From: a virus
Lineage: Duplodnaviria > Heunggongvirae > Uroviricota > Caudoviricetes
Strand: one strand, 5' to 3'
DNA length: 64,000 nucleotides
Virus record (IMG/VR): IMGVR_UViG_3300012933_000331
Location: 38,070-102,069 of that record
Position numbers and translations under genes: made by a program. This document shows positions 23,760 to 60,536 of the stretch, in pieces. The first letter of the stretch is position 1. Each line of letters opens with the position of its first letter. The notes beneath the pieces are model-generated. The model worked only from the letters and a program-made list of their open reading frames with translations. It searched no databases and was not told where the DNA came from.

Positions 23760-24870
23760 AGATTGGGTGACAGCGGTTTAACAATACCATTTGATTTGTT
23801 AAATACGTCTTAATTGTGGGAAATACCGAGCCACAGCCCTTAGTGCCTATAATAAATTGTTTAGACAGTGCTAGCCTGGTGTGCTAGGAGTGTCGTGTAG
23901 ATAATCCGATTAGTAGGATTCGGCCGAATCGTCGAACATCGTAATGCTACAACCACGGCCTAGGCTTTGCTAAGCAATTTATTATGGGCGTTATGAGGTC
24001 TGCATTTATTGCAGTATAACAACTTGATGGTGACCGAATTCTCTAGTCACCGCCCACCAACCCTCTGATGAGCCAGTGCAAGTCTGGCGAAACTCTAAGG
24101 CTCGGGGCAATTTGCAGTGTAGCTCCCACTACGCTCGTTGCCACACCTTAGGGTCAGGAACCCAATGAAAACTGGAAGGGCGAACCTTCGCGGACTTAGT
24201 AGCAAGCACAGAATACGTGCGGGTGAAATCTCTGCTTAGCAAGTCCCTGAAACTTAGTAATTGGTATTGTGCGAAACCCCAGATCTGAATCCTTGATGGT
24301 ATTCTGGCAAGGAGTAGTCCTAGTGAGCAGTTACTATATAAACTGTCGCCTTATCTGGTACCGGCGTAAAATGGTCTTGGCTCTAGAGTGGCCTACTTAC
24401 AGGCCCGAGCTTGATCCTCGTTACTGTGATCCGACCCTAAGCTGTTAGAAGTCGTTAACCCTCAACCAGCCGACCCCAAGTCGTTAAAAGCTGTGACTGC
24501 AGGCGGGCTTAATACCCGAAGCATAACCACCGACCCTAAACTGCTGAGGGGTCACTAAAAATTGTCAGCAGGTGCCGAGCGTTGGAAGCGTGGGCCGTGC
24601 AGGTCGTCACGTAAAACATCCAGGGCTGTGGAGCCGAACCCGTACCACGAGTGATGGTCGAACCCCATCAAAAGTCTCACCTACCAAAACTACAACTGCC
24701 ATAACCTAACAGCAGTCAAAGGTGTTCTGGTTTAGGGTCAGGTAGTAAGTTTATACTCCGGGTGGTGCCCGGCTATAAATCCTGAAGCGAGCAACTAAAA
24801 AAGACATGGCAGTGACGATTGCCTCTTTCAAAAGCCCTACAACGGTCGCTCCGTGTAGGGCTTTTGTTTT
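23760..24870 (+). ncRNA. About 1.1-kb ORF-free transcript unit: promoter, then ~1.07 kb with no ORF of 60 aa or more in any frame, then a strong terminator. Candidate large structured ncRNA.
   Basis: The six-frame track shows no ORF between 23762 and 25067 on either strand. The region contains three (C)CGACCC(T/C)AA repeats at 24431, 24468 and 24531 and inverted GACCCTAA copies, and ends in the 24831..24870 terminator. Confidence 0.45.
24831..24870 (+). terminator. Strong intrinsic terminator.
   Basis: aaagccctacaacggtcgctccgtgtagggcttt followed by tgttttg. Confidence 0.7.
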
Positions 24871-24884
24871 GCCACAACACTTGT

Positions 24885-24957
24885 GCGCCAAAATTCAAGT
24901 GCAAAACTTTCGAGGTCCTGCGCCATTATACAAGTGCTGAACCTTGTGCGTCAAGTG
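24885..24957. repeat. Degenerate cassette copy: gcgccaaaattcaagtgcaaaac…gcgccattatacaagtg…gtgcgtcaagtg.
   Basis: Shares the GCGCCAA…TATA…GTGCGTCAAGTG motif with the copy at 22881..22920. Together they flank the non-coding region. Confidence 0.4.
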
Positions 24958-25067
24958 TGTTTTCTTAATCATACTGACCCTAAGGCAGTGCAAATTGTGG
25001 ACGCAAAAAAGCCTCTAATCGTCACTGATTAGAGGCTTTTTGTTTAATTAACGCAAATTATGTCAGA

Positions 25068-25379
25068 TTACGGCGATTTAGGGTCAGATAACCGCGATTC
25101 AATCAATTTAAGTACTACTTTGTTGACTTTTTCTAGGGATTCCAGCAATTCCAGGTCGCAATCCAATAATGTGGCAATCCGCTCGATGTGTTCGGATTTT
25201 TTCACTGGAATTTCACCGCGCTTGTTGACATAAGACTTTTTTTGGTAGACTCCAAGGCTTGATAGCTTGGCAATTATTGAGCGCTCGGGCAGGTCGAGCT
25301 GCTGTGCGAGCTGGTGAACCGGCACCCCCGCTTGGTAGTCGGCTACTAGACGGTCACAAATTTCTTTGGTGTATTTCAT
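25068..25379 (-). CDS. HTH-domain family paralog (103 aa), the only minus-strand member.
   Basis: …LPERSIIAKLSSLGVYQKKSYVNKRGE… aligns with the paralog at 17130. Confidence 0.55.
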   Translation of the reverse strand: MKYTKEICDRLVADYQAGVPVHQLAQQLDLPERSIIAKLSSLGVYQKKSYVNKRGEIPVKKSEHIERIATLLDCDLELLESLEKVNKVVLKLIESRLSDPKSP

Positions 25380-25391
25380 GTTTGTGACTCC

Positions 25392-26390
25392 TTATAACCA
25401 CGGAAAGTCTGGGTTTTCACCATTAGACTTAAACTGAGGCTTAGAAACGGATTCCTGCTTGAAAATATCTGTGGAAATAAGTGGAGCAGGAATTGAATCC
25501 CACGCTTGAGGGTCCAAAATCATATACTTGGTACGATTGCTTGGATGTGCACACCAGATTTGAGCAATCATTGTTTGTGCAAGTTCTGGCACTTTGTGCA
25601 ATTTAGTGCCAGTAGTATCATATAGTTTAAAAGTACTCAAGGGGTTGCGCTGTGTACCCGCCTTAGTGCCAGTTTTATAAGTCAAACCCTGCTCTCGGGC
25701 CTGCAAAATTTCTTCGCGAGCCATGTCTGGAACTTCACACAACATGGCTTTACACAAACTATCGTTGACCACGTACTTGATAGTATCGCGATCCCACTCC
25801 GAATACTTGATATTCTGATTTAATTTAAAGGCAAAAGGAATAAGGGGAACTAAGCTGCAGTATGTGCGGCCCTCGCCTTTGTATTGGCTGCTAATCCAGC
25901 TGCTGCGAGAGTCAAGCAGCAAGAACTGATACAGCCCTAAATCCCACTCGCTGCTGAAGTCAAAGATTTGAGCCGCCATTTTGCGACCATTGATTTTACC
26001 CTCAGGCGTCATAACTTCAGCAAGCCTGATAGGTTTATGGGTCAGCCAGCTGACGATCTGTGGCATAACCCAAGTCTGCATGATAGTTTCCAGTTTGTAT
26101 CTGGGAATAAAATCTGTGATAATAGCCGAGCTACCTGCTTTATTGCGTACTCGTGCAGACTCTGGATGTTTTTTGTAGGGGTACTGATCTGAAAAATTAC
26201 CCTCAAATGGGGCTTCATGAGTGTCAGACCAATTTCGTTCAAGTTGGGCAATAAATTCGTCGTATCGTTCACTATTCTCAGCTTCTAGTGTTTGTTCTGC
26301 CATATCTGCGGCATCCATAAACATTTTATAAGCTATGTCAAAAGGAATCGAACGTAGTTCTCGGGTGGTTGTTCGTGTTAAAAAACTCAT
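25392..26390 (-). CDS. Hypothetical protein (332 aa).
   Basis: Long ORF with a tightly spaced neighbour. Confidence 0.5.
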   Translation of the reverse strand: MSFLTRTTTRELRSIPFDIAYKMFMDAADMAEQTLEAENSERYDEFIAQLERNWSDTHEAPFEGNFSDQYPYKKHPESARVRNKAGSSAIITDFIPRYKLETIMQTWVMPQIVSWLTHKPIRLAEVMTPEGKINGRKMAAQIFDFSSEWDLGLYQFLLLDSRSSWISSQYKGEGRTYCSLVPLIPFAFKLNQNIKYSEWDRDTIKYVVNDSLCKAMLCEVPDMAREEILQAREQGLTYKTGTKAGTQRNPLSTFKLYDTTGTKLHKVPELAQTMIAQIWCAHPSNRTKYMILDPQAWDSIPAPLISTDIFKQESVSKPQFKSNGENPDFPWL

Positions 26391-26776
26391 TTGGTAAATA
26401 CCTTGACCCTAAAGTAAAACACGCACACTAGCTAGGGCTCAAGGCTAGAGTGGGCGATATCCCAAAGTTGGGACAATTATCGTGATTGGTTTATAGTTGA
26501 GATTAGTTCAAAATACAAAGCTTAAAAACAAGCAGACTTATACTATTTGAACATTTAAACAAATTGTTTGTGATTGCACACTTTTCATTAGACCCTAAAT
26601 CGTCGTAACCTGCAGGGGGCCAGCAGGTAACTTCTCATAGGAAGAAAAGTGTTATCACACAATTTGCTATCTTTGATGATTTACTTTATATATTATAACA
26701 CAAAAAAATTAAAATACAAGATGTATTTTTAGTTGTGCATCTTGTACTAGTAGTAAAATCTCTGATTTAGACGGCA

Positions 26777-35503: not shown

Positions 35504-36532
35504 GTGGCTATGACATATTTTAATCAAACTATCAATCGCGTTGGCTTTGCCTGCAAAATTCAATCTGATCATGATACAGCTAATAGTGACCTGAATACCA
35601 AGTCTACAACTATCAGCTATCTTGCTCGTCAGACTCCGGACGCTGCTCGTGCCAAGCTGTGGGGTTTGCTTGACCACAATCTTAATGCGTTCTATCGTCA
35701 ATTGAAGTGGGTTGCGCAACAACCGGCTAATCAGCGTATGTTTCGCATTACAAGTGACTTGTTGCCAGCATATACTCATGACGACTATATGCCATTCTAC
35801 TTCCAAAGCGACGTTGTTGCCAAGATTTCAGCACATCTCAGTATGTGCGGCGAGTTTGCTCGCGAGCATGACATTCGTCTCAGCTTCCACCCAGGTCAGT
35901 TTTGCGTGCTTGCCAGCGAAAATCCTGGCGTTGTTGAAAACTCAATTACCGAGTTCGAGTATCACGCTGACTTGATTCGTTATATGGGTTACGGTCGCAA
36001 ATTTCAAGACTTCAAGTGCAATGTGCACGTTGGCGGTAAGCTAGGCCCAGCAGGTATCAAAGCTGCTATGCGTAGACTCAGCCCCGAAGCACGCAACACC
36101 CTAACAATCGAAAATGCCGAGTTTACCTGGGGTCTTGATGCTAGCTTAGAGTTGGTAGATACCTGTGCACTTGTTCTTGACATTCATCATCACTGGATTA
36201 ATAGTGGCGAATACATTGAACCCAACGATCCACGATTTATGCGTGTGGTTGATAGCTGGCGAGGCGTTCGTCCCGTGGTACACTATAGTGTCAGCCGTGA
36301 AGACGTACTTGTTGCGCACGACCCAACAATGCGACCAAATCTCCAAGAACTGAAGTTCATGGGCTTTACAGCTGCTAAATTGCGTGCTCATAGTGACTAC
36401 TACTGGAATTCAGCAGTAAATACTTGGGCCTTGACATTTAGTCCATATGCTGATATAATGTGTGAATCAAAACAAAAAAACTTAGCAAGCACTAAACTTG
36501 TAAAGCGATGCCTTATTCAAACAGCTACTTAA
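35504..36532 (+). CDS. uvsE: UV-damage endonuclease (UvdE/Uve1 family).
   Basis: FHPGQF…VHVGG…TIENAE…LDIHHH motifs match UvdE catalytic segments. Confidence 0.6.
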   Translation: MAMTYFNQTINRVGFACKIQSDHDTANSDLNTKSTTISYLARQTPDAARAKLWGLLDHNLNAFYRQLKWVAQQPANQRMFRITSDLLPAYTHDDYMPFYFQSDVVAKISAHLSMCGEFAREHDIRLSFHPGQFCVLASENPGVVENSITEFEYHADLIRYMGYGRKFQDFKCNVHVGGKLGPAGIKAAMRRLSPEARNTLTIENAEFTWGLDASLELVDTCALVLDIHHHWINSGEYIEPNDPRFMRVVDSWRGVRPVVHYSVSREDVLVAHDPTMRPNLQELKFMGFTAAKLRAHSDYYWNSAVNTWALTFSPYADIMCESKQKNLASTKLVKRCLIQTAT

Positions 36533-40895: not shown

Positions 40896-41076
40896 AAGTA
40901 TTTATAAGTTTGACCCTAAGCTGGAGTAGTTCTCTAGTCCTTTACCAACGGCCTAACTAGCCTAGTAGTTCTATAGGCCAACGCCTCGGCTCATACTCGA
41001 CCGTAGTTGGGGTTAAACTTATAAATATAGACTTGATTGTACAGCCTATTTGTTGTATAATTATCTTTTACGCAAT

Positions 41077-46740: not shown

Positions 46741-47090
46741 TTGTATGAAGCAGACAGAAACAGGTTCTGGACGCGGGTTCGAGTCCCGCCAGCTCCACCA
46801 TAAGCGTATTTAAGGGGGTTCGAGTCCTCTCTATAAAACTGGTAGTTGTAAGTAATACGCTTTTGATGGGGCTGCATTTGGTTTCGACAGGGCAAAGAGT
46901 AAACAAGTAGACAACTCGGCAATGTAGAAGCCGTAGGGTTAGGGATTCCTGGCCGCAGAAGCAAAACAAAAATAAACGCAAACGATACACAGTTCGCATT
47001 GGTAGCCTAACAGCCGCCTAGGGTTTTGTCAGGTTTTCCTCGTAACAGAATAAACCTGACCCTAAACCAACATAAATTTTAGCATATTGA
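46721..47090 (+). ncRNA. ssrA: Circularly permuted (two-piece) tmRNA gene. The acceptor piece (…T arm, CCAGCUCCACCA) is at ~46721..46800, an intervening segment at 46801..46867, and the coding piece (GGGGCUG…tag ORF…) at 46868..~47090.
   Basis: The 3' hallmark ctggacgcgggttcgagtcccgccagctccacca ends at 46800, upstream of the 5' hallmark ggggctgcatttggtttcgacaggg beginning at 46868. Acceptor pairing ggggctg/cagctcc keeps G3:U70. The resume codon and tag GCA AAC GAT ACA CAG TTC GCA TTG GTA GCC TAA (46978..47010) encode (A)ANDTQFALVA, preceded by …gcaaaacaaaaataaac as in E. coli tmRNA. No T arm or acceptor follows the tag. A putative P2 pairing joins 46722-46735 with 47077-47088. Confidence 0.7.
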
Positions 47091-47149: not shown

Positions 47150-47737
47150 ATGAAATACACAAACATTCTCGACCCTAAATTGTTTCAGTCGGACAAATAC
47201 TCAAACAATTTCACCAAGCCAGTCGCACACATTCATGAGTTTTATCTTAGCGGGCCAATTTGTGACGCTGAAGAATACATTGAGTGGTTTGACGTTATTC
47301 GTAACGCATCAGCAACTGACACAATTCGCATTTACATCAATAGCCCTGGTGGTGACCTATTTACTACACTACAGTTCTTGCGAGTAATGTCGGACACAGA
47401 TGCTACTGTTGTTTGTAGTGTAGAAGGCGCTTGTATGAGTGCAGCTACCATGATCTTCCTACACGGTCATAGTCAAGAAGTTACTCCACATAGCTTGTTT
47501 ATGTTTCACAACTATAGTGCCGGAACATTTGGCAAAGGCGGCGAAATGTACGATCAGCTGCAGTTTGAACGTACTTGGTCAGAAAACTTTATGACTGAAG
47601 TGTATCAAGGCTTTTTGACACCTGAAGAAATCTCCTCAATGATGCACAACAAAGACATTTGGATGGGTTCTGAAGAAGTTGTCCGTCGTCTAACAGCCAT
47701 GCAAGCACAGCGTGAAGCTGAAGCAGCACAAGAATAA
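47150..47737 (+). CDS. clpP: ClpP-like serine protease (S14 family).
   Basis: …IYINSPGGDLFTTLQFL…VEGACMSAATMIFLHGH… matches ClpP signatures (INSPGG, GxAxSxAxxI). RBS aaggaaa precedes the ATG at 47150. The gene lies immediately downstream of the tmRNA. Confidence 0.65.
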   Translation: MKYTNILDPKLFQSDKYSNNFTKPVAHIHEFYLSGPICDAEEYIEWFDVIRNASATDTIRIYINSPGGDLFTTLQFLRVMSDTDATVVCSVEGACMSAATMIFLHGHSQEVTPHSLFMFHNYSAGTFGKGGEMYDQLQFERTWSENFMTEVYQGFLTPEEISSMMHNKDIWMGSEEVVRRLTAMQAQREAEAAQE

Positions 47738-47870: not shown

Positions 47871-47876
47871 TAAGAC

Positions 47877-47945: not shown

Positions 47946-48269
47946 ATGGCTATTTCATTTAAAAACATCAAAGACCCTAAACTGGGGATAACTGATACAA
48001 TCACATTTGGTAAACTAAAAGGTTGCCGTGTATGCGATGTAGCCCAAGATCATTACGAATACTTGATTTGGGCTGAAAAGTCCGGTTACGTTAAGTTTCA
48101 AACCGAGGCTATTGAGCTGATTCAAGAGCAGGCTAGTTTTGCCCGTTGGCAGATACATGAAGCCGAAGAAGTTGCCCCATACATGGATGGCAACAAATAC
48201 GAATACTTGGCAGAAATTGCCAGTCGTCAAGACTATGACACAAGTTTTGAAGATGATGTTCCATTTTAA
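47946..48269 (+). CDS. Hypothetical protein (107 aa).
   Basis: Track ORF 47889..48269 trimmed to the first ATG after the hairpin. Confidence 0.45.
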   Translation: MAISFKNIKDPKLGITDTITFGKLKGCRVCDVAQDHYEYLIWAEKSGYVKFQTEAIELIQEQASFARWQIHEAEEVAPYMDGNKYEYLAEIASRQDYDTSFEDDVPF

Positions 48270-48270
48270 T

Positions 48271-48346
48271 GCGTGCTTAGCTCAGCTGGTAGAGCAGTTC
48301 GTTGCCAACGAACAGGTCGCAGGTTCGAACCCTGTAGCCCGCACCA
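48271..48346 (+). tRNA. tRNA-Gly (GCC).
   Basis: D arm gctcagctggtagagc; anticodon stem gttcg/cgaac with loop ttgccaa; T loop ttcgaac; CCA. Confidence 0.7.
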
Positions 48347-48370
48347 CAATTACCCTTGCGCCAAACTGGC

Positions 48371-48756: not shown

Positions 48757-48801
48757 CCTTCCAAGCTAGTGAGACGAGTTCGATCCTCGTACCCCGCTCC
48801 A
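48728..48801 (+). tRNA. tRNA-Gly (TCC).
   Basis: Acceptor gcggggt/accccgc; anticodon stem ctagc/gctag with loop cttccaa; T arm acgag-ttcgatc-ctcgt; CCA. Confidence 0.7.
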
Positions 48802-48805
48802 ATTT

Positions 48806-48880
48806 GCATCCTTAGCTCAGTGGTAGAGCGTCGGATTTACATTCCGAGGGTCGGCAGTTCGAAACTGTCAGGATGTACCA
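48806..48880 (+). tRNA. tRNA-Val (TAC).
   Basis: Acceptor gcatcct/aggatgt; D arm gctcagtggtagagc; anticodon loop tttacat; T loop ttcgaaa; CCA. Confidence 0.7.
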
Positions 48881-48981
48881 ATTAAAACCGCTAAGGAACC
48901 GCTCGATGTACTGGAGCCTCCAGGGGATGCGGCAATTAGGGTTACCCTTGACCCTAAACTATATAAACTTGAACACAATTT

Positions 48982-49173
48982 ATGCAACCACACCAACAAC
49001 GAGTAGTAGACGAACACAGTGCTTTAACCGATAAAGCCAAAGCACTATACAACTTTTTTGTAAATAAAACCTTTGAAACACTAGATAGTGACGAGCAAGA
49101 GCTACTTAAAATGCAATACTATTCAATGATGGTATATGCAGGTATCTTGCAAAAACGAATTGCAAAATTTTAA
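48982..49173 (+). CDS. Hypothetical protein (63 aa).
   Basis: Track ORF. Confidence 0.4.
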   Translation: MQPHQQRVVDEHSALTDKAKALYNFFVNKTFETLDSDEQELLKMQYYSMMVYAGILQKRIAKF

Positions 49174-49232
49174 ACTTGAACAAATCCCCTAAAGCCAGTA
49201 TAATATATACTTCTTTAGGGGATTTCTGCATT

Positions 49233-49583
49233 ATGAATCCAGATAAACTATTAACAATGGCAGAATTTGTGGCAGACTTAACAAAATACCACAACATCGA
49301 CATTAACTCAATACACGAATTACATCAAATCATGAACACAACAAAAATTATAAATCAAGCCACAATGCACGATACAGTGCGTAACAAACAGTTTATTGTT
49401 GGTAGCTTTCAGCCAGCAACTGGACTTAGCTTTGCTGCTATTCCAACTGTGCAATATTCAGCAACACAGGCTCGTAGTGAGTGCAAACGCTTGGCTAAAA
49501 TGTACCCAGGCAAGACATTTGTTTATGTGCAGCTGCAGGGTGCTGAAATGACTGTGCCACAGCCAACAACTGTTAGTATCTAA
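49233..49583 (+). CDS. Hypothetical protein (116 aa).
   Basis: Promoter AGTATAATATATACTTC is upstream; start trimmed. Confidence 0.45.
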   Translation: MNPDKLLTMAEFVADLTKYHNIDINSIHELHQIMNTTKIINQATMHDTVRNKQFIVGSFQPATGLSFAAIPTVQYSATQARSECKRLAKMYPGKTFVYVQLQGAEMTVPQPTTVSI

Positions 49584-49591
49584 GGAATCTT

Positions 49592-49888
49592 ATGCGTAAA
49601 ATTGTTATTGGCATGGACGCTGGCCAAGCTGGCACTGATTCGTGGAGTTTTTGGTTAGTTCCAAAATCCATGACCGATACACAGTTATCAGAACTAGCCT
49701 GGGAATGTGCTAAAGACCATGCAGAAATGTATGGTATCTATCCGCGTGATGAATACGTGGATACCGAAGACTTCGATGAAGATGACGAGCATTATTCAGA
49801 GGGGATTGAGGGTTGGTATGAAGACTACGACTCTGAAAAACACGATGGCCACCGCGTTGGCAGCGACACTAGCTGGAGCTCATACTAA
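49592..49888 (+). CDS. Acidic hypothetical protein (98 aa).
   Basis: Track ORF. Confidence 0.45.
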   Translation: MRKIVIGMDAGQAGTDSWSFWLVPKSMTDTQLSELAWECAKDHAEMYGIYPRDEYVDTEDFDEDDEHYSEGIEGWYEDYDSEKHDGHRVGSDTSWSSY

Positions 49889-50412
49889 TGGCTAATATAT
49901 TTTTTGCAAGCGACCATCACCTTGACCACGCTAACATCTTAACATTCAAACGCGACGATGGTACTGCCTTACGCGAGTTTGAGTCAGTTAGTCACATGAA
50001 TGAACATATTGTTAATTGTCACAACTCAGTGGTACGTCCCGGTGATAAAGTGTACTTCTTAGGTGACGTAACCATGAGTTCCAAGACCAGTGCACTAGAT
50101 ATTCTGTATCGCATGAATGGTGAGAAAATTTTAATCAAAGGCAACCACGACTTGTGCAAATTATCTGCGTACGCAGCACATTTCAAAGACGTTCGTGGTA
50201 GTCATCAGTTTGAGGGTCTAATCATGACCCATATACCCATTCACTCAGAGAGCTTAGCTCGCTGGGGATTAAATGTGCATGGGCACCTACACCACAATGT
50301 GGTAAAGATGCCACTATCACAAATTCCAGACCGTCGTTATTTTAACGTTTCGATGGAACGTATTAACTATACCCCTATTTCTCTAGAAGAGGTTAAAAAA
50401 CAATGTCGGTAA
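49888..50412 (+). CDS. Metallophosphoesterase (calcineurin-like).
   Basis: ASDHHLDHAN…GDV…GNHD…H motifs. Confidence 0.6.
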   Translation: MANIFFASDHHLDHANILTFKRDDGTALREFESVSHMNEHIVNCHNSVVRPGDKVYFLGDVTMSSKTSALDILYRMNGEKILIKGNHDLCKLSAYAAHFKDVRGSHQFEGLIMTHIPIHSESLARWGLNVHGHLHHNVVKMPLSQIPDRRYFNVSMERINYTPISLEEVKKQCR

Positions 50413-50855
50413 CATTACAAAACCTGGAGAGTGCCTTAGCCGGTGAATCCATGGCCTATACAAAGTATATGTATTTTGCCAAAATTGCTCGTGAAGAAGG
50501 TTATTCAGAAGTAGCTGACCACTTTGAGCATACTGCAAGCCAAGAACTAAAACACGCTTGGGGTCACTTAGAACTATTAATTGGCAAGCCTAGTACAAAA
50601 GTTTGTTTGGAAAAAGCCATTGAAGGCGAAACATACGAATACACAGAGATGTATCCATTGTTTGAAGCTAAGGCAATTCGTGAAGGTAATTACGAAGTTG
50701 CACAAGAAGCTCGTAACCAAACACAGGAATCTCGTGAGCACGCAGAAGCCTTTATCAAGGTTCTACAAAAAGCAGAAAAGCGCTTTGCAGCACTTAAGCG
50801 TGTGGAGCAGCGTCATGCAGAAGCATATCAACAAGTTTGGGAAACAGTAAAATGA
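50403..50855 (+). CDS. Rubrerythrin/ferritin-like diiron protein.
   Basis: ESALAGESMAYTKYMYFAKIAREEGY…HTASQELKHAW…EGETYEYTEMYP carries ExxH diiron ligand patterns. Confidence 0.6.
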   Translation: MSVTLQNLESALAGESMAYTKYMYFAKIAREEGYSEVADHFEHTASQELKHAWGHLELLIGKPSTKVCLEKAIEGETYEYTEMYPLFEAKAIREGNYEVAQEARNQTQESREHAEAFIKVLQKAEKRFAALKRVEQRHAEAYQQVWETVK

Positions 50856-50986
50856 CATATATTTGTGTAGTATGTGACCACGTTCACGATGAAGCCACTG
50901 AAGGCGCTTGGGATACCCTTCCGGACGATTTTGAGTGCCCTGAGTGTGGTGTAGGCAAAGAAGATTACGTTATTTTCGAGGACTAA
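50852..50986 (+). CDS. Rubredoxin (44 aa).
   Basis: CVVCDHV…CPECGVGKEDY is the classic rubredoxin CxxCG…CPxCG motif. An ATGA overlap joins it to rubrerythrin. Confidence 0.7.
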   Translation: MTYICVVCDHVHDEATEGAWDTLPDDFECPECGVGKEDYVIFED

Positions 50987-51406
50987 ATGCTAGAGTGCCT
51001 GATCTTAGGAGATTCGATTGCTGTTGGTGTTAGTGCCAAGCGTCCAGAATGTGCTTCGTACTCAAAAGGCGGAATTAACACTTGGCAGTGGAATAACAAA
51101 TACCTAACTAAGAATTTATCTGCAAAAACAGTAATTATTAGTTTGGGTAGTAATGATCACAAGTATGTTAAAACTCGTCGTGAGTTGGAAAATATGCGCG
51201 AACTAGTTCAAGCTGACAGAGTTTACTGGATTCTTCCACACGGTAACTTAAAAGGCAGTGAAGTACCTATTGAACGTATTCAGCAATATGTAAACGAAGT
51301 TGCTGAAATGTACCAAGATGTAGTACTGCCAATTAAATACCCAACTAAGGATAATATCCATCCCAGTGATCGGGGATACAAAGACTTAGTAGAAAAAACG
51401 CGCTGA
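50987..51406 (+). CDS. SGNH/GDSL-like hydrolase.
   Basis: N-terminal ILGDSIAVG (GDS motif). Confidence 0.5.
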   Translation: MLECLILGDSIAVGVSAKRPECASYSKGGINTWQWNNKYLTKNLSAKTVIISLGSNDHKYVKTRRELENMRELVQADRVYWILPHGNLKGSEVPIERIQQYVNEVAEMYQDVVLPIKYPTKDNIHPSDRGYKDLVEKTR

Positions 51407-51476
51407 TAGCTCAGTTGGTTAGAGCAGCCGACTCATAATCGGTTGGTCGCGGGTTCAAGTCCTGCTCGGCGCACCA
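51400..51476 (+). tRNA. tRNA-Met (CAT), second CAT tRNA.
   Basis: Acceptor gcgctga/tcggcgc; anticodon loop ctcataa; T arm gcggg-ttcaagt-cctgc; CCA. Overlaps the preceding stop codon. Confidence 0.7.
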
Positions 51477-56204: not shown

Positions 56205-56241
56205 CTTGTTTCTGTGACCCTAAACTGTTATAATAATATCT

Positions 56242-57192
56242 ATGAACAAAATTACACAATATTTAGATTCGGCTTCAGCCGCTTATTATGCAGGCTCACC
56301 ATTCATCACAGATGCACAGTTTGACGCGCTTGCTGATAGTGTGGGTTATGGTGCTGTGGGCACTAAACAAAATAGCAAAACCGAGCGTCATTTGTACCAA
56401 ATGTACTCACTACAGAAATACTACGAAGATGAAGGTACCAAACCTCTCCAAGGCATTCGATCTATTGCTACTAGTGTTAAGTTGGATGGGGCAGCTCTTA
56501 GCCTACTTTATGTTGATGGTAATCTTGTTCGAGTTCTTACCCGTGGGGATGGTGTAGAAGGTCAGATTGTTACTGACAAGTTCTTGGGCAACCCTATTGT
56601 TCCACAAACAGTGCCTTTTCAAGGCGTTTACCAGATCACTGGCGAGATTGTGGCTCCACTCAACATCGACAATGCTCGTAACTATGCCGCAGGTGCTCTT
56701 AACCTAAAAGATGTAGCCGAGTTTCAGTCACGGGCATTGAGCTTCTTTGCTTATGGTGTTCAGCCTAGCCTGCACGATACCTTCAACGCAGACATGAACG
56801 CACTGCGTTTGGCTGGCTTTAGTGTAATCAACGAACCAGACTTGGATAAAATCTTTCCTTGCGATGGTATCGTGTTCCGTGTTAATGACAATGCCCAATT
56901 TTATGAAATGGGCTATACAGCCAAGCATCCCCGTGGTGCTTATGCTAAAAAAGAACGAGCAGCCCATGTGGAAACCAAACTACTTTCAGTTGAATGGCAA
57001 GTTGGCAAGTCGGGCAAAGTCAGCCCAGTTGCTATTCTGGAGCCTGTTTATATTGGCGATGCCCTGGTCAGTCGTGCTACTCTTAATAATCCTGGTTTTA
57101 TTGAAATGCTGGATTTACGAATCGGCGACACGGTAGCCGTTATCAGGGCTGGAGAAATCATACCTTGCATTTTACATAAAGTTGATGCTTGA
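56242..57192 (+). CDS. ligA: NAD-dependent DNA ligase, N-terminal fragment (adenylation/NTase and OB-like region).
   Basis: KLDG adenylation motif (…VKLDGAALSLLYVDG…) plus downstream LigA nucleotidyltransferase motifs. Confidence 0.6.
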   Translation: MNKITQYLDSASAAYYAGSPFITDAQFDALADSVGYGAVGTKQNSKTERHLYQMYSLQKYYEDEGTKPLQGIRSIATSVKLDGAALSLLYVDGNLVRVLTRGDGVEGQIVTDKFLGNPIVPQTVPFQGVYQITGEIVAPLNIDNARNYAAGALNLKDVAEFQSRALSFFAYGVQPSLHDTFNADMNALRLAGFSVINEPDLDKIFPCDGIVFRVNDNAQFYEMGYTAKHPRGAYAKKERAAHVETKLLSVEWQVGKSGKVSPVAILEPVYIGDALVSRATLNNPGFIEMLDLRIGDTVAVIRAGEIIPCILHKVDA

Positions 57193-57263: not shown

Positions 57264-58031
57264 ATGAAGATCGAAATCCCAACAACCTGCCCCTGCTGTA
57301 GCTACAAACTCGAATTGGTCAACGATCAATTATTTTGTCGCAACACGGCTTGCGGTGCTCAGCTTACCAAAAAAGTTGAACACTTCTGCAAGACCCTAGG
57401 CATCAAAGGTATGGGGCCAAAGTCAGTTGAAAAACTTGACTTGCAAGATTTGACTGAACTGTTTTATCTTGATTTGGAAACAGTCTCGGAAGCCCTAGGT
57501 AGTGAAAAAACTGCCGCAAAACTACTTGATGAAATCGAACGAGCCAAATCGGCTGATCTAGCCACAGTGCTAGCAAGTTTCTCGATTACTCTGGTTGGTC
57601 AAACGGCTTCTAAGAAAATTTGTGATGTAGTTGACAATATCGACGAAATCACATACGAAACGTGCAAAGCCGCTGGTTTAGGTGACAAAGTTACCGAAAA
57701 CCTGATTACTTGGCTAGAAACAGATTTCCCTGATTTGCGAGAGTTTTTGCCGTTCTCTTTCAAATCTACTCGAAATTCCACATCAAACAGTAACAACAAT
57801 TCTAAAACTGTTTGTATCACTGGAAAGTTATCTTCTTACAAAAACAAAGCAGAAGCATACCAAGCTCTGGAAGCTGCTAGATACAAAGCAGTAGAGTCTG
57901 TAACGAAAACCACAGACTATTTGGTTGATGAAGAAGATAAAGCTAGTACAAAACGCAAAAAAGCCGAATCCCTCGGCATCCCAATTATAACAAACCTAAA
58001 TACTTTCTTGAAAGAAAACAAAAATGACTGA
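57264..58031 (+). CDS. ligA: NAD-dependent DNA ligase, C-terminal fragment (Zn finger, HhH, BRCT).
   Basis: CPCCSYKLE…CRNTAC Zn finger; GIKGMGPKSVEKL HhH; VCITGKL… BRCT. It is a separate ORF with its own promoter-like sequence (ACTTGTC…GCTATAAT) in the 71-nt gap. Confidence 0.6.
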   Translation: MKIEIPTTCPCCSYKLELVNDQLFCRNTACGAQLTKKVEHFCKTLGIKGMGPKSVEKLDLQDLTELFYLDLETVSEALGSEKTAAKLLDEIERAKSADLATVLASFSITLVGQTASKKICDVVDNIDEITYETCKAAGLGDKVTENLITWLETDFPDLREFLPFSFKSTRNSTSNSNNNSKTVCITGKLSSYKNKAEAYQALEAARYKAVESVTKTTDYLVDEEDKASTKRKKAESLGIPIITNLNTFLKENKND

Positions 58032-58773
58032 AAAAGCTACTAAAAACTGGTCCGATGAAGCTGTTGACCAACTGATGAACATCGTTGGATCACAAAGCCC
58101 TGTTAGCGTTGAGTCTGTTGAGCGTGCCGCTGAACAACTTGGTAAAACTACTCGTAGTATCGCTTCTAAGCTGCGTCAACTAGACCGTGAAGTTGCTAGT
58201 CTTGCCAAGGAAAAAACTTCCGCATTTACTGCTGACGAAGGCGCTGATCTCGCTGATTTCGTGCAAGCAAATGCCGGTAACTTGACTTACAAAGAAATCG
58301 CTGAAAACTTTGCTGGTGGCAAGTTCTCGGCGAAACAAATCCAAGGTAAATTGCTTGCTTTGGAACTGACTGGTTCAGTGAAGCCAGCAGAAAAAGTGGA
58401 AGTTGCTCGCACTTACACTGAAGCCGAAGAAGCCACTTTTGTGAAGATGGCTGAATCTGGTAGCTTTATCGAAGATATTGCCAGCAAGTTGAACAAGACT
58501 GTTGCCTCCGTTCGTGGTAAAGCCCTGAGCTTGACACGTAAGGGTCAGATTGCCAAGATTCCAGCACAAAAAGAATCACACGCTAAGGAATCTGTTGATC
58601 CAGTGACTGCCTTGGGTGCTGCTATCAGCACAATGACTGTTGCAGAAATTGCAGCTGCTGTTGACAAAACTGAGCGTGGTCTGCGTACTTTGCTGACTCG
58701 CCGTGGTATCAAAGTTGCTGACTATGACGGTGCAGCTAAAAAAGCCAAGGCCGAAGCCAAAGCAGCCGCTTAA
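58024..58773 (+). CDS. Protein with four tandem copies of the family HTH domain (249 aa).
   Basis: Repeats …GKTTRSIASKLRQL…, …GKFSAKQIQGKLLAL…, …NKTVASVRGKALSLTRKG… and …TERGLRTLLTRRGIKV…. Confidence 0.55.
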   Translation: MTEKATKNWSDEAVDQLMNIVGSQSPVSVESVERAAEQLGKTTRSIASKLRQLDREVASLAKEKTSAFTADEGADLADFVQANAGNLTYKEIAENFAGGKFSAKQIQGKLLALELTGSVKPAEKVEVARTYTEAEEATFVKMAESGSFIEDIASKLNKTVASVRGKALSLTRKGQIAKIPAQKESHAKESVDPVTALGAAISTMTVAEIAAAVDKTERGLRTLLTRRGIKVADYDGAAKKAKAEAKAAA

Positions 58774-58790
58774 TTTGGTTTAACCAATTA

Positions 58791-58825
58791 GCCCGGGAGT
58801 CCCATAAAGCTCCCGGGCTTTTTCT
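58791..58825 (+). terminator. Intrinsic terminator.
   Basis: gcccgggag tcccataaa gctcccgggc followed by tttttctg. Confidence 0.7.
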
Positions 58826-58843
58826 GTTTAAGGAGTTCATAGT

Positions 58844-59143
58844 ATGAAAGTAACTATTACATACCATGATAACGAGTCTTTCACGATGGAAGAAGTCGTA
58901 AAACAGGCTGTGCATAATTATGGCAAGGCAGCACAGGTAGAGATTACACCAGAATCTACTATGGCCTATGACCACATCTATTTTGGACTACAGCAGCTTA
59001 TTACGCATGAGCAGCTTAGTTTGTTATATGACAGTGGAGCATCTTATCAACAAGATATTAAAAAGCTACGGGACGAAGTTATGTATAAAGTAACCGAAAT
59101 CGTAGATCAAGTTCTAATAGACAACGAATCGAAAGTAGGGTAA
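58844..59143 (+). CDS. Hypothetical protein (99 aa).
   Basis: RBS aaggag precedes the ATG. Confidence 0.5.
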   Translation: MKVTITYHDNESFTMEEVVKQAVHNYGKAAQVEITPESTMAYDHIYFGLQQLITHEQLSLLYDSGASYQQDIKKLRDEVMYKVTEIVDQVLIDNESKVG

Positions 59144-59144
59144 C

Positions 59145-60536
59145 TTGGATACTAGTGCAGTAGTCTTAAACAAATTATTAACTGAGCGTAACCTAGATAT
59201 CTGGGCAAAGCTGAAGTTGGTATTCTTAGACCCTGCGTACTCTTCCTTGTATAGCGTCGTTAATAAGTACTACGAGAAGTACAGCGCTATACCGTCATTT
59301 GACGATCTTGAGCTAACCTTAAGGGAGGGTCCGGCGTCTAAAACTCTGGCGACTCTCCGGTTAACCGAGGTACCAGACGTTTCTGCTGAAGTAGCATTGG
59401 ATGCGTTAATCGACCAATACACTCAGAATGAAACGGTAAAATTACTAGATAAATTCGTAGATAAACTCCCACTCTACGATACAAACGAAATAAAAGAAAG
59501 TCTAGCGACAATTGCGCTGACTATTGAGGAAAAGACCCACACAAGTGAAAAAGTCTTTACCATGGCTGATATGATGATGTTTCAGCATCCAGAAGACTTG
59601 GAGAAAGAACGTGTATATCTTGGACTTAACAATAGCTTTGACAGTGTTCTTGGCGGTGTTGCTCGCCAGGAACTTATTCTCATTGGAGGTAAGCGGGGCT
59701 CTGGTAAATCTATTGCTAGTAGCAACTTGTTTATTAATCAGTACGAATCTGGCAATTCAAGCATTTATTTCAGCATTGAGATGACTGCTAAAGAAACGAT
59801 GGAGCGTAATCTGAGTATCTTAGCTAATGTTAATTTACAGAACCTAAAGCAACACAAACTAACTGATGATGAACTATTACGAGTTGTAAAAGCTCGTGCA
59901 GAAATGTTTGTTGGTGGCGAAGACTTAGTTTCAGAGTTCATGCGTCATCGTGATCGATTTAAGTTTGAAGAAATGCTGGTACGTAGTTGCAGTCTAAAAC
60001 CCGATAATCAAATGATTATTGTTGACGACCGTGACTTGACCCTAAGCAGTATCGACTTGCACATTGGCAAAGCCAAAGCAAAGTTCGGCGATAAACTCAA
60101 ACTAGTAGTGGTGGATTACTTGAACCAAATTGTCCTAGAAGGTAACGATCAGTATGATTGGAAACCACAAATTGAAGTATCCAAGAAACTCAAAAACCTT
60201 GCACGTAAGTATGAAATCGTCATGGTCAGCCCGTATCAGATTGATAAGGACGGGGAAGCCCGCTTTGCGAAAGGTATCTTGGACGCAGCGGATATTGCCC
60301 TTACTATGGAAGCGCATGACAAAGAAACTAATGCGATCAGTTTTGAGACGACAAAAATTCGTGGGGGCAAGGAAATGGCATTTACGTGCCCAATTGACTG
60401 GGATAGTCTACGCATCAGCCCACAGAGCGTGGATCGCCCACAAGCTAAAGAGACGATAAAGAAAGCTGGTAAGAAATCACAGGACGATGCTCCGCCAGTA
60501 TCGGATGCTGGTGCAGACTTACCTTGGAACGCATAA
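59145..60536 (+). CDS. DnaB-like replicative helicase (RecA-fold ATPase).
   Basis: Walker A LIGGKRGSGKS and Walker B …LVVVDYLNQ…. The track start is TTG, so the true start is uncertain. Confidence 0.6.
   Translation: MDTSAVVLNKLLTERNLDIWAKLKLVFLDPAYSSLYSVVNKYYEKYSAIPSFDDLELTLREGPASKTLATLRLTEVPDVSAEVALDALIDQYTQNETVKLLDKFVDKLPLYDTNEIKESLATIALTIEEKTHTSEKVFTMADMMMFQHPEDLEKERVYLGLNNSFDSVLGGVARQELILIGGKRGSGKSIASSNLFINQYESGNSSIYFSIEMTAKETMERNLSILANVNLQNLKQHKLTDDELLRVVKARAEMFVGGEDLVSEFMRHRDRFKFEEMLVRSCSLKPDNQMIIVDDRDLTLSSIDLHIGKAKAKFGDKLKLVVVDYLNQIVLEGNDQYDWKPQIEVSKKLKNLARKYEIVMVSPYQIDKDGEARFAKGILDAADIALTMEAHDKETNAISFETTKIRGGKEMAFTCPIDWDSLRISPQSVDRPQAKETIKKAGKKSQDDAPPVSDAGADLPWNA

What the first reader, a model, noticed from the sequence alone, without database searches (positions are those of the whole stretch)
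24433..60055. Highly over-represented 9-mer GACCCTAA (extended consensus TGACCCTAARCTG), 17 copies
Copies on the plus strand: 24433, 24532, 24976, 26405, 26591, 40912, 47058, 47171, 47973, 48950, 56216 and 60048. Inverted copies: 8432, 16557, 24149, 24732 and 25078. The chance expectation for a specific 8-mer in 64 kb of both strands is about 2. Several copies are in intergenic or upstream positions, for example 48950 before a promoter, 56216 immediately before the ligase gene's -10, and 26405 upstream of the minus-strand gene ending at 26390. Others lie inside coding or RNA regions. There is a strand bias (12 plus, 5 minus) and a cluster in the non-coding region 24100-25100. The motif could be a binding site for one of the phage's own multicopy HTH proteins, a phage-specific promoter or regulatory element, or a target or avoidance signature of a nuclease.
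Basis: seen in the sequence. Interest (0 to 1): 0.6.

Follow-up and report, generated by a model that had tools for sequence, protein, structure and literature searches.

The report
Polar, Chi-like octamer in T5-like phage
An eight-base DNA word (GACCCTAA) is about 15 times too frequent in this uncultured T5-like phage and its relatives. It always points away from one gene-free region on both halves of the genome, as sequences that steer or restrain DNA-tracking enzymes such as RecBCD do, and unlike a promoter or an ordinary regulator site.

Summary
GACCCTAA occurs 19 times (expected about 1.2) and is the most over-represented octamer in the window. The window is a distant T5-like siphophage, syntenic with T5 from ligA to primase.

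Hundreds of uncultured (IMG/VR) relatives keep the motif at about 14 copies per 64 kb. Positions turn over, but density and orientation are kept. Synonymous-site and codon tests show that the DNA word is selected, not a peptide.

Orientation follows the genome arm, not the gene strand.
- Left of an ORF-free zone (about 23.5-26.7 kb), 70 distinct copies lie on the window minus strand and none on the plus strand.
- On the right the ratios are 34:0, 317:1 and 114:3.
- About ten of the right-arm copies are antisense, encoded as in-frame Leu-Gly-Ser, in a block of oppositely transcribed genes.
- Inside the zone both orientations are interleaved at about 1 per 0.4 kb. One copy forms stem III and the cleavage site of a covarying hammerhead ribozyme.

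The phage-promoter reading is rejected. My best explanation (confidence about 0.4) is a Chi-like polar motif read by a helicase-nuclease, as in the "high-Chi" phages LLS and MD8. Priming sites, T5-type nick sites and D5-like HTH sites remain rivals. The host and the genome ends are unknown.

The parts
3643..3650 (-). Motif copy inside the tape-measure gene, sense, frame 0 (Asp-Pro-Lys)
8432..8439 (-). [quoted passage not shown] Conserved in 21 distinct contexts in relatives.
15352..15359 (-). Motif copy inside terL, frame 0 (Asp-Pro-Asn)
16520..16564 (-). Two direct repeats, CGTCCCAAnnGACCC(T/C)AA: GACCCTAA at 16557-16564 and the variant GACCCCAA at 16520-16527. They lie in a C-rich tract upstream of the terS promoter (16499-16470).
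   Evidence: conserved in relatives
23520..23528 (-). Variant TTGAGGGTC (GACCCTCAA), 12 nt upstream of the -35 hexamer of conserved promoter P1. Relatives L020 and L002 have TTAGGGTC at the same aligned position.
23500..26700 (.). Mixed-orientation zone where polarity switches. It holds an ORF-free, GC-rich, transcribed region (23760-25068), an HTH gene plus an ORFan, and an AT-rich spacer. There are 8 exact copies plus variants, about 1 per 0.4 kb, and orientations are interleaved in a conserved order.
24148..24155 (-). Motif copy that, read as UUAGGGUC on the + strand RNA, is the 3' strand of hammerhead stem III plus the GUC cleavage triplet (cut after 24155)
24433..24440 (+). Zone copy, with the extended unit GACCCTAAGCTGTTAGAAGTCGTTAA. 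A sister variant, GACCCCAAGTCGTTAAAAG, lies at 24472.
24532..24539 (+). Zone copy
24732..24739 (-). Zone copy, invariant in all 8 aligned sequences (the window and 7 relatives)
24976..24983 (+). Zone copy. Together with 25078(-) it flanks the bidirectional terminator 25006-25041.
25078..25085 (-). Zone copy in the last codons of the D5-like HTH gene (25068-25379). It is also the left arm of the 22-nt inverted repeat 25064-25085 / 26591-26612.
26405..26412 (+). Copy 15 nt from the start codon (26390) of the minus-strand 332-aa ORFan, antisense to that gene
26591..26598 (+). Copy in the AT-rich spacer; right arm of the 22-nt inverted repeat
40912..40919 (+). Copy 16 nt downstream of tRNA-Phe
47058..47065 (+). 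Copy at the 3' terminus of the permuted tmRNA gene
47171..47178 (+). Copy at codons 8-10 (Asp-Pro-Lys) of a ClpP-like protease gene that most likely starts at 47150
47973..47980 (+). Copy at codons 10-12 (Asp-Pro-Lys) of a small ORF (ATG at 47946)
48950..48957 (+). Intergenic copy after tRNA-Val. It forms a 7-bp inverted repeat with AACCCTAA(-) at 48936.
56216..56223 (+). Copy inside the 17-nt spacer of the ligA promoter (TTGTTT 56206-56211, TATAAT 56229-56234, ATG 56242). Conserved in 16 distinct contexts.
60038..60045 (+). Copy inside the DnaB-like (T5 D6-like) helicase gene, frame 2 (Leu-Thr-Leu-Ser). Synonymous sites are conserved across about 60 distinct orthologs.

Best explanation
GACCCTAA (complement TTAGGGTC; extended about 13 nt, yT-GACCCTAA-RYTG) is a polar DNA motif. 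It is selected for density and orientation along the whole phage chromosome, and it most likely works like a Chi site.

Proposed mechanism: a helicase-nuclease that tracks along the DNA recognises the motif from one side only. This could be host RecBCD or AddAB, or a phage-encoded equivalent. On recognition it switches from degradation to a protected, recombinogenic mode.

What is shown:
- extreme over-representation;
- conservation in a large phage clade;
- nucleotide-level selection;
- independence from local context;
- orientation that depends only on which side of the ORF-free zone a copy lies;
- a dense cluster of both orientations in that zone.

What is inferred:
- The reader of the motif is a DNA-end-processing enzyme.
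- By synteny with T5, the zone lies at the inner edge of the terminal repeat, next to the physical genome ends. A sequence that serves both ends must then carry both orientations.
- If the strand read is the G/T-rich 5'-TTAGGGTC-3', every arm copy is correctly oriented for an enzyme travelling outward from that zone.
For: Over-representation:
- 19 copies against about 1.2 expected, and the top-ranked octamer in the window.
- About 13-15 copies per 64 kb across 0.9 Mb and 1.4 Mb of relatives.
- Only 0.73 per 64 kb in 350 kb of unrelated bacterial DNA.

DNA-level selection:
- 6 of 8 in-frame Asp-Pro-Lys/Asn are encoded GACCCTAA, against 14.7% expected from codon usage.
- At the helicase site, ACC is used in 89% and CTA in 88% of orthologs. 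Neighbouring 4- to 6-fold degenerate codons mostly show 43-73% for their commonest codon. Genome-wide usage is 0.20 and 0.21.

Context independence and turnover:
- Copies occur in a promoter spacer, as a -35 element, after tRNAs, at the tmRNA end, in a ribozyme stem, in sense frames 0 and 2, and antisense as Leu-Gly-Ser.
- The 426 distinct contexts fall into 198 position clusters.
- Distant relatives keep 7-8 copies per 20 kb, mostly at different positions.

Polarity by arm (distinct contexts unless stated):
- Left arm: 70 on window minus, 0 on window plus.
- Right arm: 34:0 in the ThyX set, including about 10 copies antisense to genes in the ThyX block; 317:1 raw in the ligase set; 114:3 in the set beyond the window's right end.
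- Zone: 45:41.
- The switch zone and the convergent early/late gene junction are about 52 and 49 kb apart on the roughly 100-kb circular map, so the arms are equal.

Precedent:
- Chi is an 8-mer, about 1 per 5 kb, polarised, and unknown for most Proteobacteria (bioRxiv 10.1101/2020.08.13.249359).
- Phages LLS and MD8 carry 23 and 32 host Chi sites. Almost all are in one orientation and cluster near one genome end. [quoted passage not shown]

Synteny with T5:
- ligA, ligB, D5, D6 helicase and primase are in T5 order.
- The ORF-free zone is positioned like T5's iss / Repeat Region 3 at the inner end of the terminal repeat.
Against: - The host is unknown. I could not show that the octamer is enriched or skewed in any bacterial genome.
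- In a truncated IMG/VR scan, only relatives of this clade had dense copies. That fits a phage-specific reader as well as, or better than, host Chi.
- Phages with G+C from 0.35 to 0.47 share the motif.
- Known Chi sequences are G-rich, and this motif is only moderately so, on the TTAGGGTC strand.
- The physical ends are not mapped. Contig-end positions gave no clear signal.
- Under the TTAGGGTC reading, the putative left terminal repeat (block A, 17.1-23.7 kb) has no correctly oriented copy for about 6.5 kb.
- Under the GACCCTAA reading, the arm copies face the wrong way for an enzyme entering at the ends.
- T5 itself shows no comparable motif and has only 6 E. coli Chi sites.
- Copies are over-represented in non-coding DNA (12 of 19) and in N-terminal codons. 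I attribute this to weaker constraint there, but it could instead indicate a function tied to gene starts.
Confidence: 0.4

Rival explanations
1. Preferred priming or replisome signal on the lagging-strand template. The ORF-free zone or the adjacent AT-rich spacer would be a bidirectional origin. The DnaB-like helicase and DnaG-like primase travelling outward would read 5'-GACCCTAA-R-CTG-3' and start a primer of about 11 nt (pppAG-Y-UUAGGGUC) at the CTG.
For: - Polarity points away from the zone on both arms, and the arms are equal.
- Both orientations occur in the zone, as a bidirectional origin would need.
- The extended consensus often ends in CTG or TTG. From general knowledge, E. coli DnaG starts at 5'-CTG and makes primers of 10-12 nt.
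- Helicase and primase genes are present.
- An AT-rich stretch (32-36% G+C) at 26.4-26.8 kb is flanked by two + copies.
Against: - Spacing is irregular, with a 14.3-kb gap between 26591 and 40912 in the window.
- Primases normally need only a trinucleotide.
- The zone itself is GC-rich, and there is no DnaA-box cluster.
- Four-fold-site GC and AT skews show no arm effect.
- By T5 analogy the origin would lie near the divergent early-gene switch (34.6 kb), and polarity does not change there.
Confidence: 0.13
2. Recognition site of a phage nicking endonuclease. This would be the counterpart of the site-specific single-strand interruptions that characterise T5-like virion DNA, possibly priming strand-displacement synthesis outward on each arm.
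For: - The phage is T5-like.
- T5 and BF23 carry specific nicks (PMC10644984). One major T5 nick lies in the iss region, which is syntenic with the zone.
- The annotated major T5 nick sites share A|GCGCAGGG (4 of the 5 annotated positions; the site at 78573 reads GGGCGCGGG). This loosely resembles the reverse-complement motif: AG-Y-nn-AGGG against CAG-Y-TT-AGGGTCA.
- The T5 record notes that its polymerase can use a nick as a primer.
Against: - The T5 consensus Pu|GCGC is absent from the motif.
- T5 nicks are all on one strand regardless of region, whereas this motif switches strand between arms.
- T5's nick word is rare (4 unique copies), not over-represented.
- The sequence resemblance is a post-hoc 7-of-9 match.
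Confidence: 0.12
3. Operator or recognition site of the phage's D5-like HTH proteins (four short paralogs plus full-length D5). It would be used for early-gene shut-off or late activation, with the zone acting as a high-density binding array.
For: - D5-like paralogs lie at 17130, 21525, 23198 and 25068(-), and full-length D5 at 58024 (phrog_323, E 1e-40). D5 has sub-threshold Sigma70_r4_2 similarity (24.8 bits against a cut-off of 25.7).
- 115 of 411 copies read TTGACC, which is -35-like, and several overlap sigma-70-like promoters.
- One HTH gene lies inside the zone and ends in a motif copy.
- T5 D5 is annotated as a DNA-binding protein needed for replication, late transcription and early shut-off.
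Against: - The register relative to promoters is variable.
- There are mid-gene copies with synonymous conservation.
- Copies in the ThyX block are antisense.
- Polarity by arm is strict, and positions turn over while density is conserved. None of this is expected of a transcription-factor regulon.
Confidence: 0.1
4. RNA-level network. RNAs from the zone carry both GACCCUAA and UUAGGGUC, are processed by the hammerhead, and base-pair with complementary words in phage mRNAs. Most mRNAs carry GACCCUAA, and ThyX-block mRNAs carry UUAGGGUC.
For: - The zone has conserved promoters, terminators and a covarying ribozyme.
- The + strand RNA would contain three copies of each word.
- Several sense copies lie within the first 6-26 codons or in 5' leaders.
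Against: - Copies lie in promoter spacers and upstream of -35 elements.
- Copies occur deep inside genes in the ThyX block (codons 37-199) and in the helicase gene.
- No strong plus-strand (antisense) promoter was found in the ThyX block.
- The ribozyme copy is base-paired, not free, and it covaries away from the motif in 5 of 18 sequences.
Confidence: 0.06

Closest known systems
[quoted passage not shown]
   Same: - Asymmetric octamer.
- The most over-represented octamer of the genome.
- Density of about 1 per 2-5 kb.
- Near-absolute orientation bias.
- A local concentration of copies.
- Found in coding and non-coding DNA alike.
   Different: - The sequence is unrelated to any known Chi.
- Host and reader enzyme are unknown.
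- Two arms have opposite orientation, rather than one orientation throughout.
- The dense cluster contains both orientations.
- The phage is a roughly 100-kb T5-like virulent-type phage, not a lambdoid one.
- Whether a recombination module is absent was not tested.
KOPS / SRS / architecture-imparting skewed octamers read by FtsK or SpoIIIE
   Same: - Polar 8-mers whose orientation switches at one defined chromosomal site.
- Density rises toward that site.
- Orientation is independent of gene strand.
   Different: - No FtsK, Xer or dif context here.
- Those motifs are bacterial chromosome features (GGGNAGGG, GAGAAGGG).
- No translocase candidate was identified in the phage.
T5 / BF23 site-specific nick sites and the T5 iss (Repeat Region 3) non-coding region
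   Same: - Same phage lineage.
- A roughly 1.2-1.3-kb untranslated, repeat-rich region in the same syntenic position.
- T5 has a major nick there.
- Short asymmetric words.
   Different: - The T5 region is built from DnaA boxes, palindromes and direct repeats; none of these is seen here.
- T5 nick words are rare and all on one strand.
- The zone here encodes structured RNAs, including a hammerhead.
T4 MotA boxes and late promoters (phage-specific promoter words)
   Same: - A short oriented word repeated dozens of times in a large virulent phage.
- It often overlaps the -35 region.
   Different: - There is no fixed distance to a -10 or to gene starts.
- Antisense copies occur in one gene block.
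- Mid-gene copies are conserved at synonymous sites.
- Membership was tested and not met.

Membership tests
Chi-like recombination / nuclease-control motif | Short asymmetric word, statistically over-represented in the genome that uses it | tested here: met
   19 copies against about 1.2 expected, and the top-ranked octamer. There is about 12-fold enrichment across 2.3 Mb of relatives.
Chi-like recombination / nuclease-control motif | Strong orientation bias defined by chromosome geometry (ends or replication), not by gene strand | tested here: met
   Left arm 70:0. Right arm 34:0, 317:1 and 114:3. ThyX-block copies are antisense to their genes.
Chi-like recombination / nuclease-control motif | Function independent of local context, with positions that turn over while density is kept | tested here: met
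   198 position clusters. Copies lie in promoters, RNA genes, and sense and antisense reading frames.
Chi-like recombination / nuclease-control motif | The same word is over-represented and skewed in the host core genome | not testable with these tools
   The host is unknown. The tmRNA-based genome scan hit only unrelated taxa.
Chi-like recombination / nuclease-control motif | Recognised by RecBCD/AddAB, attenuating degradation and stimulating recombination | not testable with these tools
   This needs biochemistry or genetics.
High-Chi-density phages (LLS / MD8 type) | Copies concentrated near the genome end where the nuclease enters | tested here: inconclusive
   A dense cluster exists and is syntenic with the inner edge of T5's terminal repeat. 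But the termini are not mapped, and contig ends were uninformative.
High-Chi-density phages (LLS / MD8 type) | No phage recombination module | not tested
   Only about 85 of the roughly 100 kb were seen, and no systematic search was made.
Phage-specific promoter word (T4 MotA box / late promoter type) | Fixed register relative to the -10 or transcription start, and co-orientation with the downstream gene | tested here: not met
   TATAAT offsets of +13, +21, +23, -35 and -15 occur, depending on the orthologous group. Antisense copies occur in the ThyX block.
T5-type nick site | Consensus Pu|GCGC, with all sites on one strand of the genome | tested here: not met
   The motif has no GCGC and changes strand between arms. 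Whether the motif is nicked cannot be tested here.
DnaA-box array (T5 iss-like) | Clustered TTWTNCACA boxes in the untranslated region | tested here: not met
   14 boxes in the window against 11 expected, and none in 23.4-29.9 kb.
Hammerhead ribozyme (noticed in passing) | CUGAUGA ... GAAA core, GUC cleavage triplet, and stems II and III supported by covariation | tested here: met
   The core lies at 24065-24093. Stem II has 3 covarying pairs and stem III has 4 in 18 sequences. Unrelated phages carry standard type I hammerheads with the same core. The Rfam score is only 20.6 bits, and stem I is only 3-4 bp.

The most novel reading that the evidence does not exclude
The motif is not the host's Chi. 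It is a phage-private polar 'self' signal, read by a phage-encoded DNA-tracking enzyme.

One candidate reader is the T5-type machinery that destroys host DNA after first-step transfer. Another is a nickase that primes outward strand-displacement replication. In either case the phage would mark its own chromosome, with defined polarity from the terminal-repeat boundary, and leave host DNA unprotected.

A sub-variant: the zone's ribozyme-processed RNAs take part in reading or setting this signal.
Probability: 0.2. Interest if true: 0.85.

Novelty: new variant of a known kind. Interest (0 to 1): 0.62.

Why it matters
If the motif is Chi-like, it would be the first candidate Chi-type sequence for the unknown host lineage of a very abundant clade of uncultured phages. 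A permuted beta-type tmRNA carried by the phage hints that the host is betaproteobacterial. Chi is unknown for most Proteobacteria.

It would also extend the recently described "high-Chi" lifestyle from lambdoid phages to roughly 100-kb T5-like phages. The architecture would be new: two opposed arms and a bidirectional cluster.

That question is how the phage spares its own DNA while destroying the host's, and what its site-specific nicks and untranslated terminal-repeat region are for.

Either way the motif is a simple sequence marker for orienting fragments of these phages and placing them in the clade.

Tried and rejected
- **Promoter or sense-RNA models.** I first favoured these because all 317 early-region copies were on the sense strand. 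I abandoned them after finding antisense in-frame Leu-Gly-Ser copies in the ThyX block and no strong plus-strand (antisense) promoter there.
- **Peptide motif (Asp-Pro-Lys).** Rejected by the codon-usage test.
- **A related polar word, AGGCCCTG, in the distant relative L246.** It is a Glu-Ala-Leu codon-usage artefact.
- **T5 as a comparator.** It has no comparable polar octamer, and only 6 E. coli Chi sites.
- **Host identification.** A 25-nt tmRNA T-arm pattern searched in genome-contig hit only unrelated taxa with background motif density.
- **Unrelated phages sharing the motif.** I scanned for the 14-mer CTGACCCTAAACTG. Dense loci were all clade relatives. Two unrelated loci with 3 copies each are within chance.
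- **Origin features.** There is no DnaA-box cluster and the zone is GC-rich. Four-fold-site skews show no arm effect.
- **Physical ends inferred from contig termini.** There is only a weak peak near 17.0-17.5 kb, and nothing among long contigs.
- **The 332-aa ORFan next to the zone.** It has no Pfam or PHROG hit and no IMG/VR relatives by pattern search. A 47%-identical homolog turned up later in L394.
- **Extending the source contig to the right.** This failed in three look-ups.
- **Rfam E-value search of the zone.** It gave only a weak Hammerhead_3 hit.
- **Literal literature search for the word.** It returned only unrelated primer or miRNA sequences.

Full report
**1. Observation**

GACCCTAA occurs 19 times in the 64-kb window. 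Dinucleotide-preserving shuffles give a mean of 1.42 and a maximum of 5.

Against order-1 and order-3 Markov backgrounds it is the single most over-represented octamer (expected 1.19 and 0.87, p about 2e-19). It ranks ahead of the tRNA T-arm words.

Two coordinates were off: 24148, not 24149, and 60038, not 60048.

The extended consensus holds. In 174 distinct contexts from the window and relatives the logo is yyT-GACCCTAA-R-Y-Y-G. Two one-letter variants are also enriched: GACCCTCA(A) with 9 copies and GACCCCAA with 5. At one aligned position, GACCCTCAA in the window is replaced by GACCCTAA in two relatives.

**2. What the window is**

It is a distant T5-like siphophage.
- Late genes lie on the minus strand from 1 to 16.45 kb. 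They include a tape measure, tail genes, a protease-capsid fusion (37% identical to Aeromonas and Vibrio T5-likes), the portal and the large terminase.
- "Block A" (17.1-23.7 kb) is plus-strand. It holds D5-like HTH paralogs and a polynucleotide kinase.
- An ORF-free stretch runs from 23.76 to 25.07 kb.
- "Block B" (25.07-34.5 kb) is minus-strand. It holds an HTH gene, an ORFan, a MazG-like gene, ThyX, a phosphoesterase and a cell-wall hydrolase.
- From 34.7 kb onward come plus-strand early genes. They include 25 tRNAs, a permuted beta-type tmRNA and Ro60. Then follow, in T5 order, ligA, ligB, D5, the D6-like helicase and primase.

There is no near DNA match among cultured phages.

IMG/VR contigs of 97-102 kb are circularly consistent with this gene order.

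**3. Conservation**

I fetched relatives anchored on TerL (L001-L080), ligA (L081-L160), ThyX (L219-L249) and a gene beyond the right end of the window (L251-L330).

They carry the motif at 13-15 copies per 64 kb. This holds even where ligA is only about 61% identical. By contrast, 350 kb of unrelated bacterial DNA holds 0.73 copies per 64 kb.

Some positions are orthologous and widely conserved. Examples are the helicase site, the ligA promoter, and the sites at window positions 8432 and 16557.

Overall, though, 426 distinct contexts fall into 198 position clusters. Distant relatives keep 7-8 copies per 20 kb, mostly at different places. Selection therefore acts on density and orientation rather than on particular regulatory positions.

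**4. The DNA word is selected, not a peptide**

Six of the seven window copies in real genes are in-frame GAC-CCT-AAR. Yet 6 of all 8 Asp-Pro-Lys/Asn tripeptides use exactly these codons, against 14.7% expected from codon usage.

The helicase copy is in another frame (Leu-Thr-Leu-Ser). Across 60 distinct orthologs, ACC is used in 89% and CTA in 88%. Neighbouring 4- to 6-fold degenerate codons mostly show 43-73% for their commonest codon. Genome-wide usage of ACC and CTA is 0.20 and 0.21.

**5. Local context is heterogeneous**

- Intergenic copies sit inside the 17-nt spacer of sigma-70-like promoters. An example is ligA: TTGTTT-ctgt-GACCCTAA-actgt-TATAAT, with the ATG 7 nt later.
- Other copies supply the -35 itself (TTGACCctaa-17-TATAAT).
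- Others lie upstream or downstream of promoters.
- Further copies follow tRNAs, end the tmRNA gene, or lie in the first 6-26 codons or the middle of genes.

A single promoter or operator geometry does not fit this spread.

**6. Polarity is set by genome arm, not by transcription**

This is the key result.

In the early region all copies are on the sense strand (317:1 raw), which at first suggested a transcription- or RNA-level role.

Block B changes that picture. Its genes run the other way, yet relatives carry the motif on the same (window plus) strand. There it is antisense to the genes and embedded in frame as TTA-GGG-TCn (Leu-Gly-Ser), at about 8-10 independent sites.

Counts of distinct contexts:
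- From 10 kb upstream to 4 kb downstream of the thyX start: 34 on window plus, 0 on window minus.
- From 7 kb upstream to 12 kb downstream of the terL start: 70 on window minus, 0 on window plus.
- Beyond the right end of the window: 114:3.
- Ten kb to the left of the window (the same phage, L250): one further copy, on window minus.

The word therefore points, 5' to 3', away from the region at about 23.5-26.7 kb on both sides.

The opposite switch must lie near the convergent early/late gene junction. On contig 3300012347_000366 that junction is about 52 kb from the zone in one direction and 49 kb in the other, so the arms are equal.

I found no strong plus-strand promoter in block B that could make the antisense copies "sense".

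**7. The switch zone**

Inside the zone the orientations are interleaved in a conserved order. In the window the order is -, +, +, -, +, -, then +, +. Counts in relatives are balanced (45:41). Density is about 1 copy per 0.4 kb.

The ORF-free part is GC-rich. It has two conserved plus-strand promoters (23541-23569 and 23723-23751). It also has a conserved terminator hairpin (about 24833-24871) and a bidirectional terminator (25006-25041), the latter flanked by an inverted pair of motif copies. Sequence conservation is patchy but strong.

The zone contains a hammerhead ribozyme. Its sequence reads AACCCU-CUGAUGAG-stem II-CGAAAC-stem III hairpin-CCUUAGGGUC|AGG.
- RNAalifold on 18 distinct sequences finds 3 covarying pairs in stem II and 4 in stem III.
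- Unrelated phages carry ordinary type I hammerheads with the same core.
- The motif copy at 24148 is the 3' strand of stem III plus the GUC cleavage site.
- In 5 of the 18 sequences the TTA part has covaried away, so the ribozyme needs the pairing, not the word.
- I read this as the motif being accommodated wherever sequence is free to vary.

A 22-nt inverted repeat that ends in motif copies (25064-25085 and 26591-26612) brackets the HTH gene and a 332-aa ORFan.

**8. Comparison with T5**

T5 (AY543070) has no comparably over-represented polar octamer. It carries only 6 E. coli Chi sites.

By synteny, block A plus the ORF-free zone occupy the position of the inner part of T5's terminal repeat and its untranslated iss / Repeat Region 3. 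That region overruns the repeat boundary and carries a major nick.

The T5 region's DnaA-box architecture is absent here.

T5's annotated major nick sites share A|GCGCAGGG, all on the minus strand. The resemblance to the reverse-complement motif (AG-Y-nn-AGGG) is a lead only.

**9. Mechanism**

The properties shown are:
- an octamer core;
- about 15-fold enrichment;
- density of about 1 per 3-7 kb on the arms;
- near-absolute polarity defined by chromosome geometry;
- independence from context;
- turnover with conserved density;
- a local concentration of copies.

These are the defining statistical properties of Chi. They also match the recently described phages that load their genomes with host Chi. 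LLS has 23 sites, 20 of them in the active orientation. MD8 has 32 sites in a single orientation, host Chi is its most frequent octamer, and the sites cluster near the end where RecBCD enters.

I therefore commit to a Chi-like polar control site for a DNA-end-processing helicase-nuclease, at a confidence of about 0.4.

The following steps are inferred, not shown.
- If the strand read is the G/T-rich 5'-TTAGGGTC-3', all arm copies are active for an enzyme moving outward from the zone.
- If, as in T5, the zone lies at the terminal-repeat boundary, it is close to both physical ends.
- A repeat that serves both ends would need both orientations, which would explain the mixed cluster.

Weak points:
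- The host is unknown.
- The ends are unmapped.
- Block A lacks correctly oriented copies under this reading.
- The alternative strand reading fits the end-proximal copies but not the arms.
- Dense copies were found only in relatives of this clade. That fits a phage-encoded reader as well as, or better than, host Chi.

**10. Rivals**

The rivals are, with my confidence in each:
- a preferred priming signal on the lagging-strand template, with the zone as a bidirectional origin (0.13);
- a T5-type nick site (0.12);
- D5-like HTH operators (0.10);
- an RNA pairing network centred on the zone RNAs (0.06).

Evidence for and against each, and the result that would refute each, is given in the Rival explanations section.

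**11. Novelty and interest**

Chi-dense phages are known, so this is best filed as a new variant of a known kind. What is new:
- an unrelated word;
- a T5-like genome of about 100 kb;
- two opposed arms with a bidirectional cluster in an RNA-gene region;
- a clade known only from metagenomes.

The arm-dependent polarity is demonstrable from sequence alone. The motif's overlap with a ribozyme stem is unusual.

The finding makes concrete experiments possible: terminus mapping, nick mapping, host Chi prediction and RecBCD assays.

Noticed in passing
window 24059-24160 (+): A hammerhead ribozyme with core CUGAUGAG...CGAAAC and GUC cleavage after 24155. It has a long stem III hairpin of about 50 nt and a very short stem I (3-4 bp). 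Stems II and III covary in 18 relatives. The Rfam score is only 20.6 bits.
   Followed up: yes
window 23541-24871 (+): The roughly 1.3-kb ORF-free region looks like a cluster of structured RNA genes. It has two conserved sigma-70-like promoters, strongly conserved blocks (for example GGGTGACAGCGG...CGTCTTAATTGTGGGAAA...CCGAGCCACAGCC), repeated GACCC(T/C)AAGTCGTTAAAAG units and a conserved terminator. T5 annotates several 'stable RNAs of unknown function', including the 719-nt rnaX.
   Followed up: partly
window 17515-17544, 18168-18197, 19195-19224, 20691-20720, 21434-21463, 22589-22618, 22888-22917, 24925-24954 (-): Six perfect and two near-perfect TTGACA-18-TATAAT promoters lie on the minus strand. 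They sit inside a repeated 60-85-nt intergenic cassette and point antisense to the plus-strand genes of block A. Each lies next to 23-24-nt repeats (AAAAATGAATACTTTTGTTTGCAA, 7-8 copies) that can form hairpins.
   Followed up: partly
window 46699-47065 (+) and 36991-51476: A phage-borne permuted (two-piece) beta-proteobacterial-type tmRNA with tag ANDTQFALVA, sitting among 25 tRNA genes. It hints at a betaproteobacterial host. The T-arm 25-mer did not identify one.
   Followed up: partly
window 42735-44045 (+): A Ro60 / TROVE-vWA protein is encoded inside the tRNA region. A partner Y-RNA-like gene may lie nearby.
   Followed up: no
window 56206-56244 (+): The ligA promoter places TATAAT (56229-56234) only 7 nt before the ATG (56242), with no Shine-Dalgarno sequence. 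The mRNA is therefore probably leaderless. The NAD-ligase is split into ligA and ligB, as in T5.
   Followed up: no
window 25064-26612: A 22-nt inverted repeat (91% complementary) brackets a two-gene unit: a D5-like HTH gene and a 332-aa ORFan with no Pfam or PHROG hit. Relatives carry a different gene of about 270 aa at this place. A 47%-identical homolog of the ORFan occurs in L394.
   Followed up: partly
window 16450-16700 (-): A G-poor, C/A-rich tract lies upstream of the terS promoter. It carries direct repeats CGTCCCAAnnGACCC(T/C)AA and is conserved in composition in relatives.
   Followed up: no
window 17130-17453, 21525-21971, 23198-23509 (+), 25068-25379 (-), 58024-58773 (+): Four short paralogs of the HTH part of T5 D5, plus a full-length D5 homolog. 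The full-length protein shows sub-threshold similarity to sigma-70 region 4. One paralog has a weak GcrA hit.
   Followed up: partly
window 10427-12343 (-) and 35504-36532 (+): The prohead protease and major capsid protein are fused in one 638-aa ORF. The early region also encodes a UvdE-type UV endonuclease.
   Followed up: no
L331-L333 (T5, AY543070) 9748, 22336, 39746, 78573: The annotated major nick sites of T5 share a longer word than the published Pu|GCGC. Three of the four unique sites read A|GCGCAGGG on the minus strand, and the fourth (78573) reads GGGCGCGGG. The word occurs only 4 times on that strand (3 unique positions plus the terminal-repeat duplicate).
   Followed up: partly
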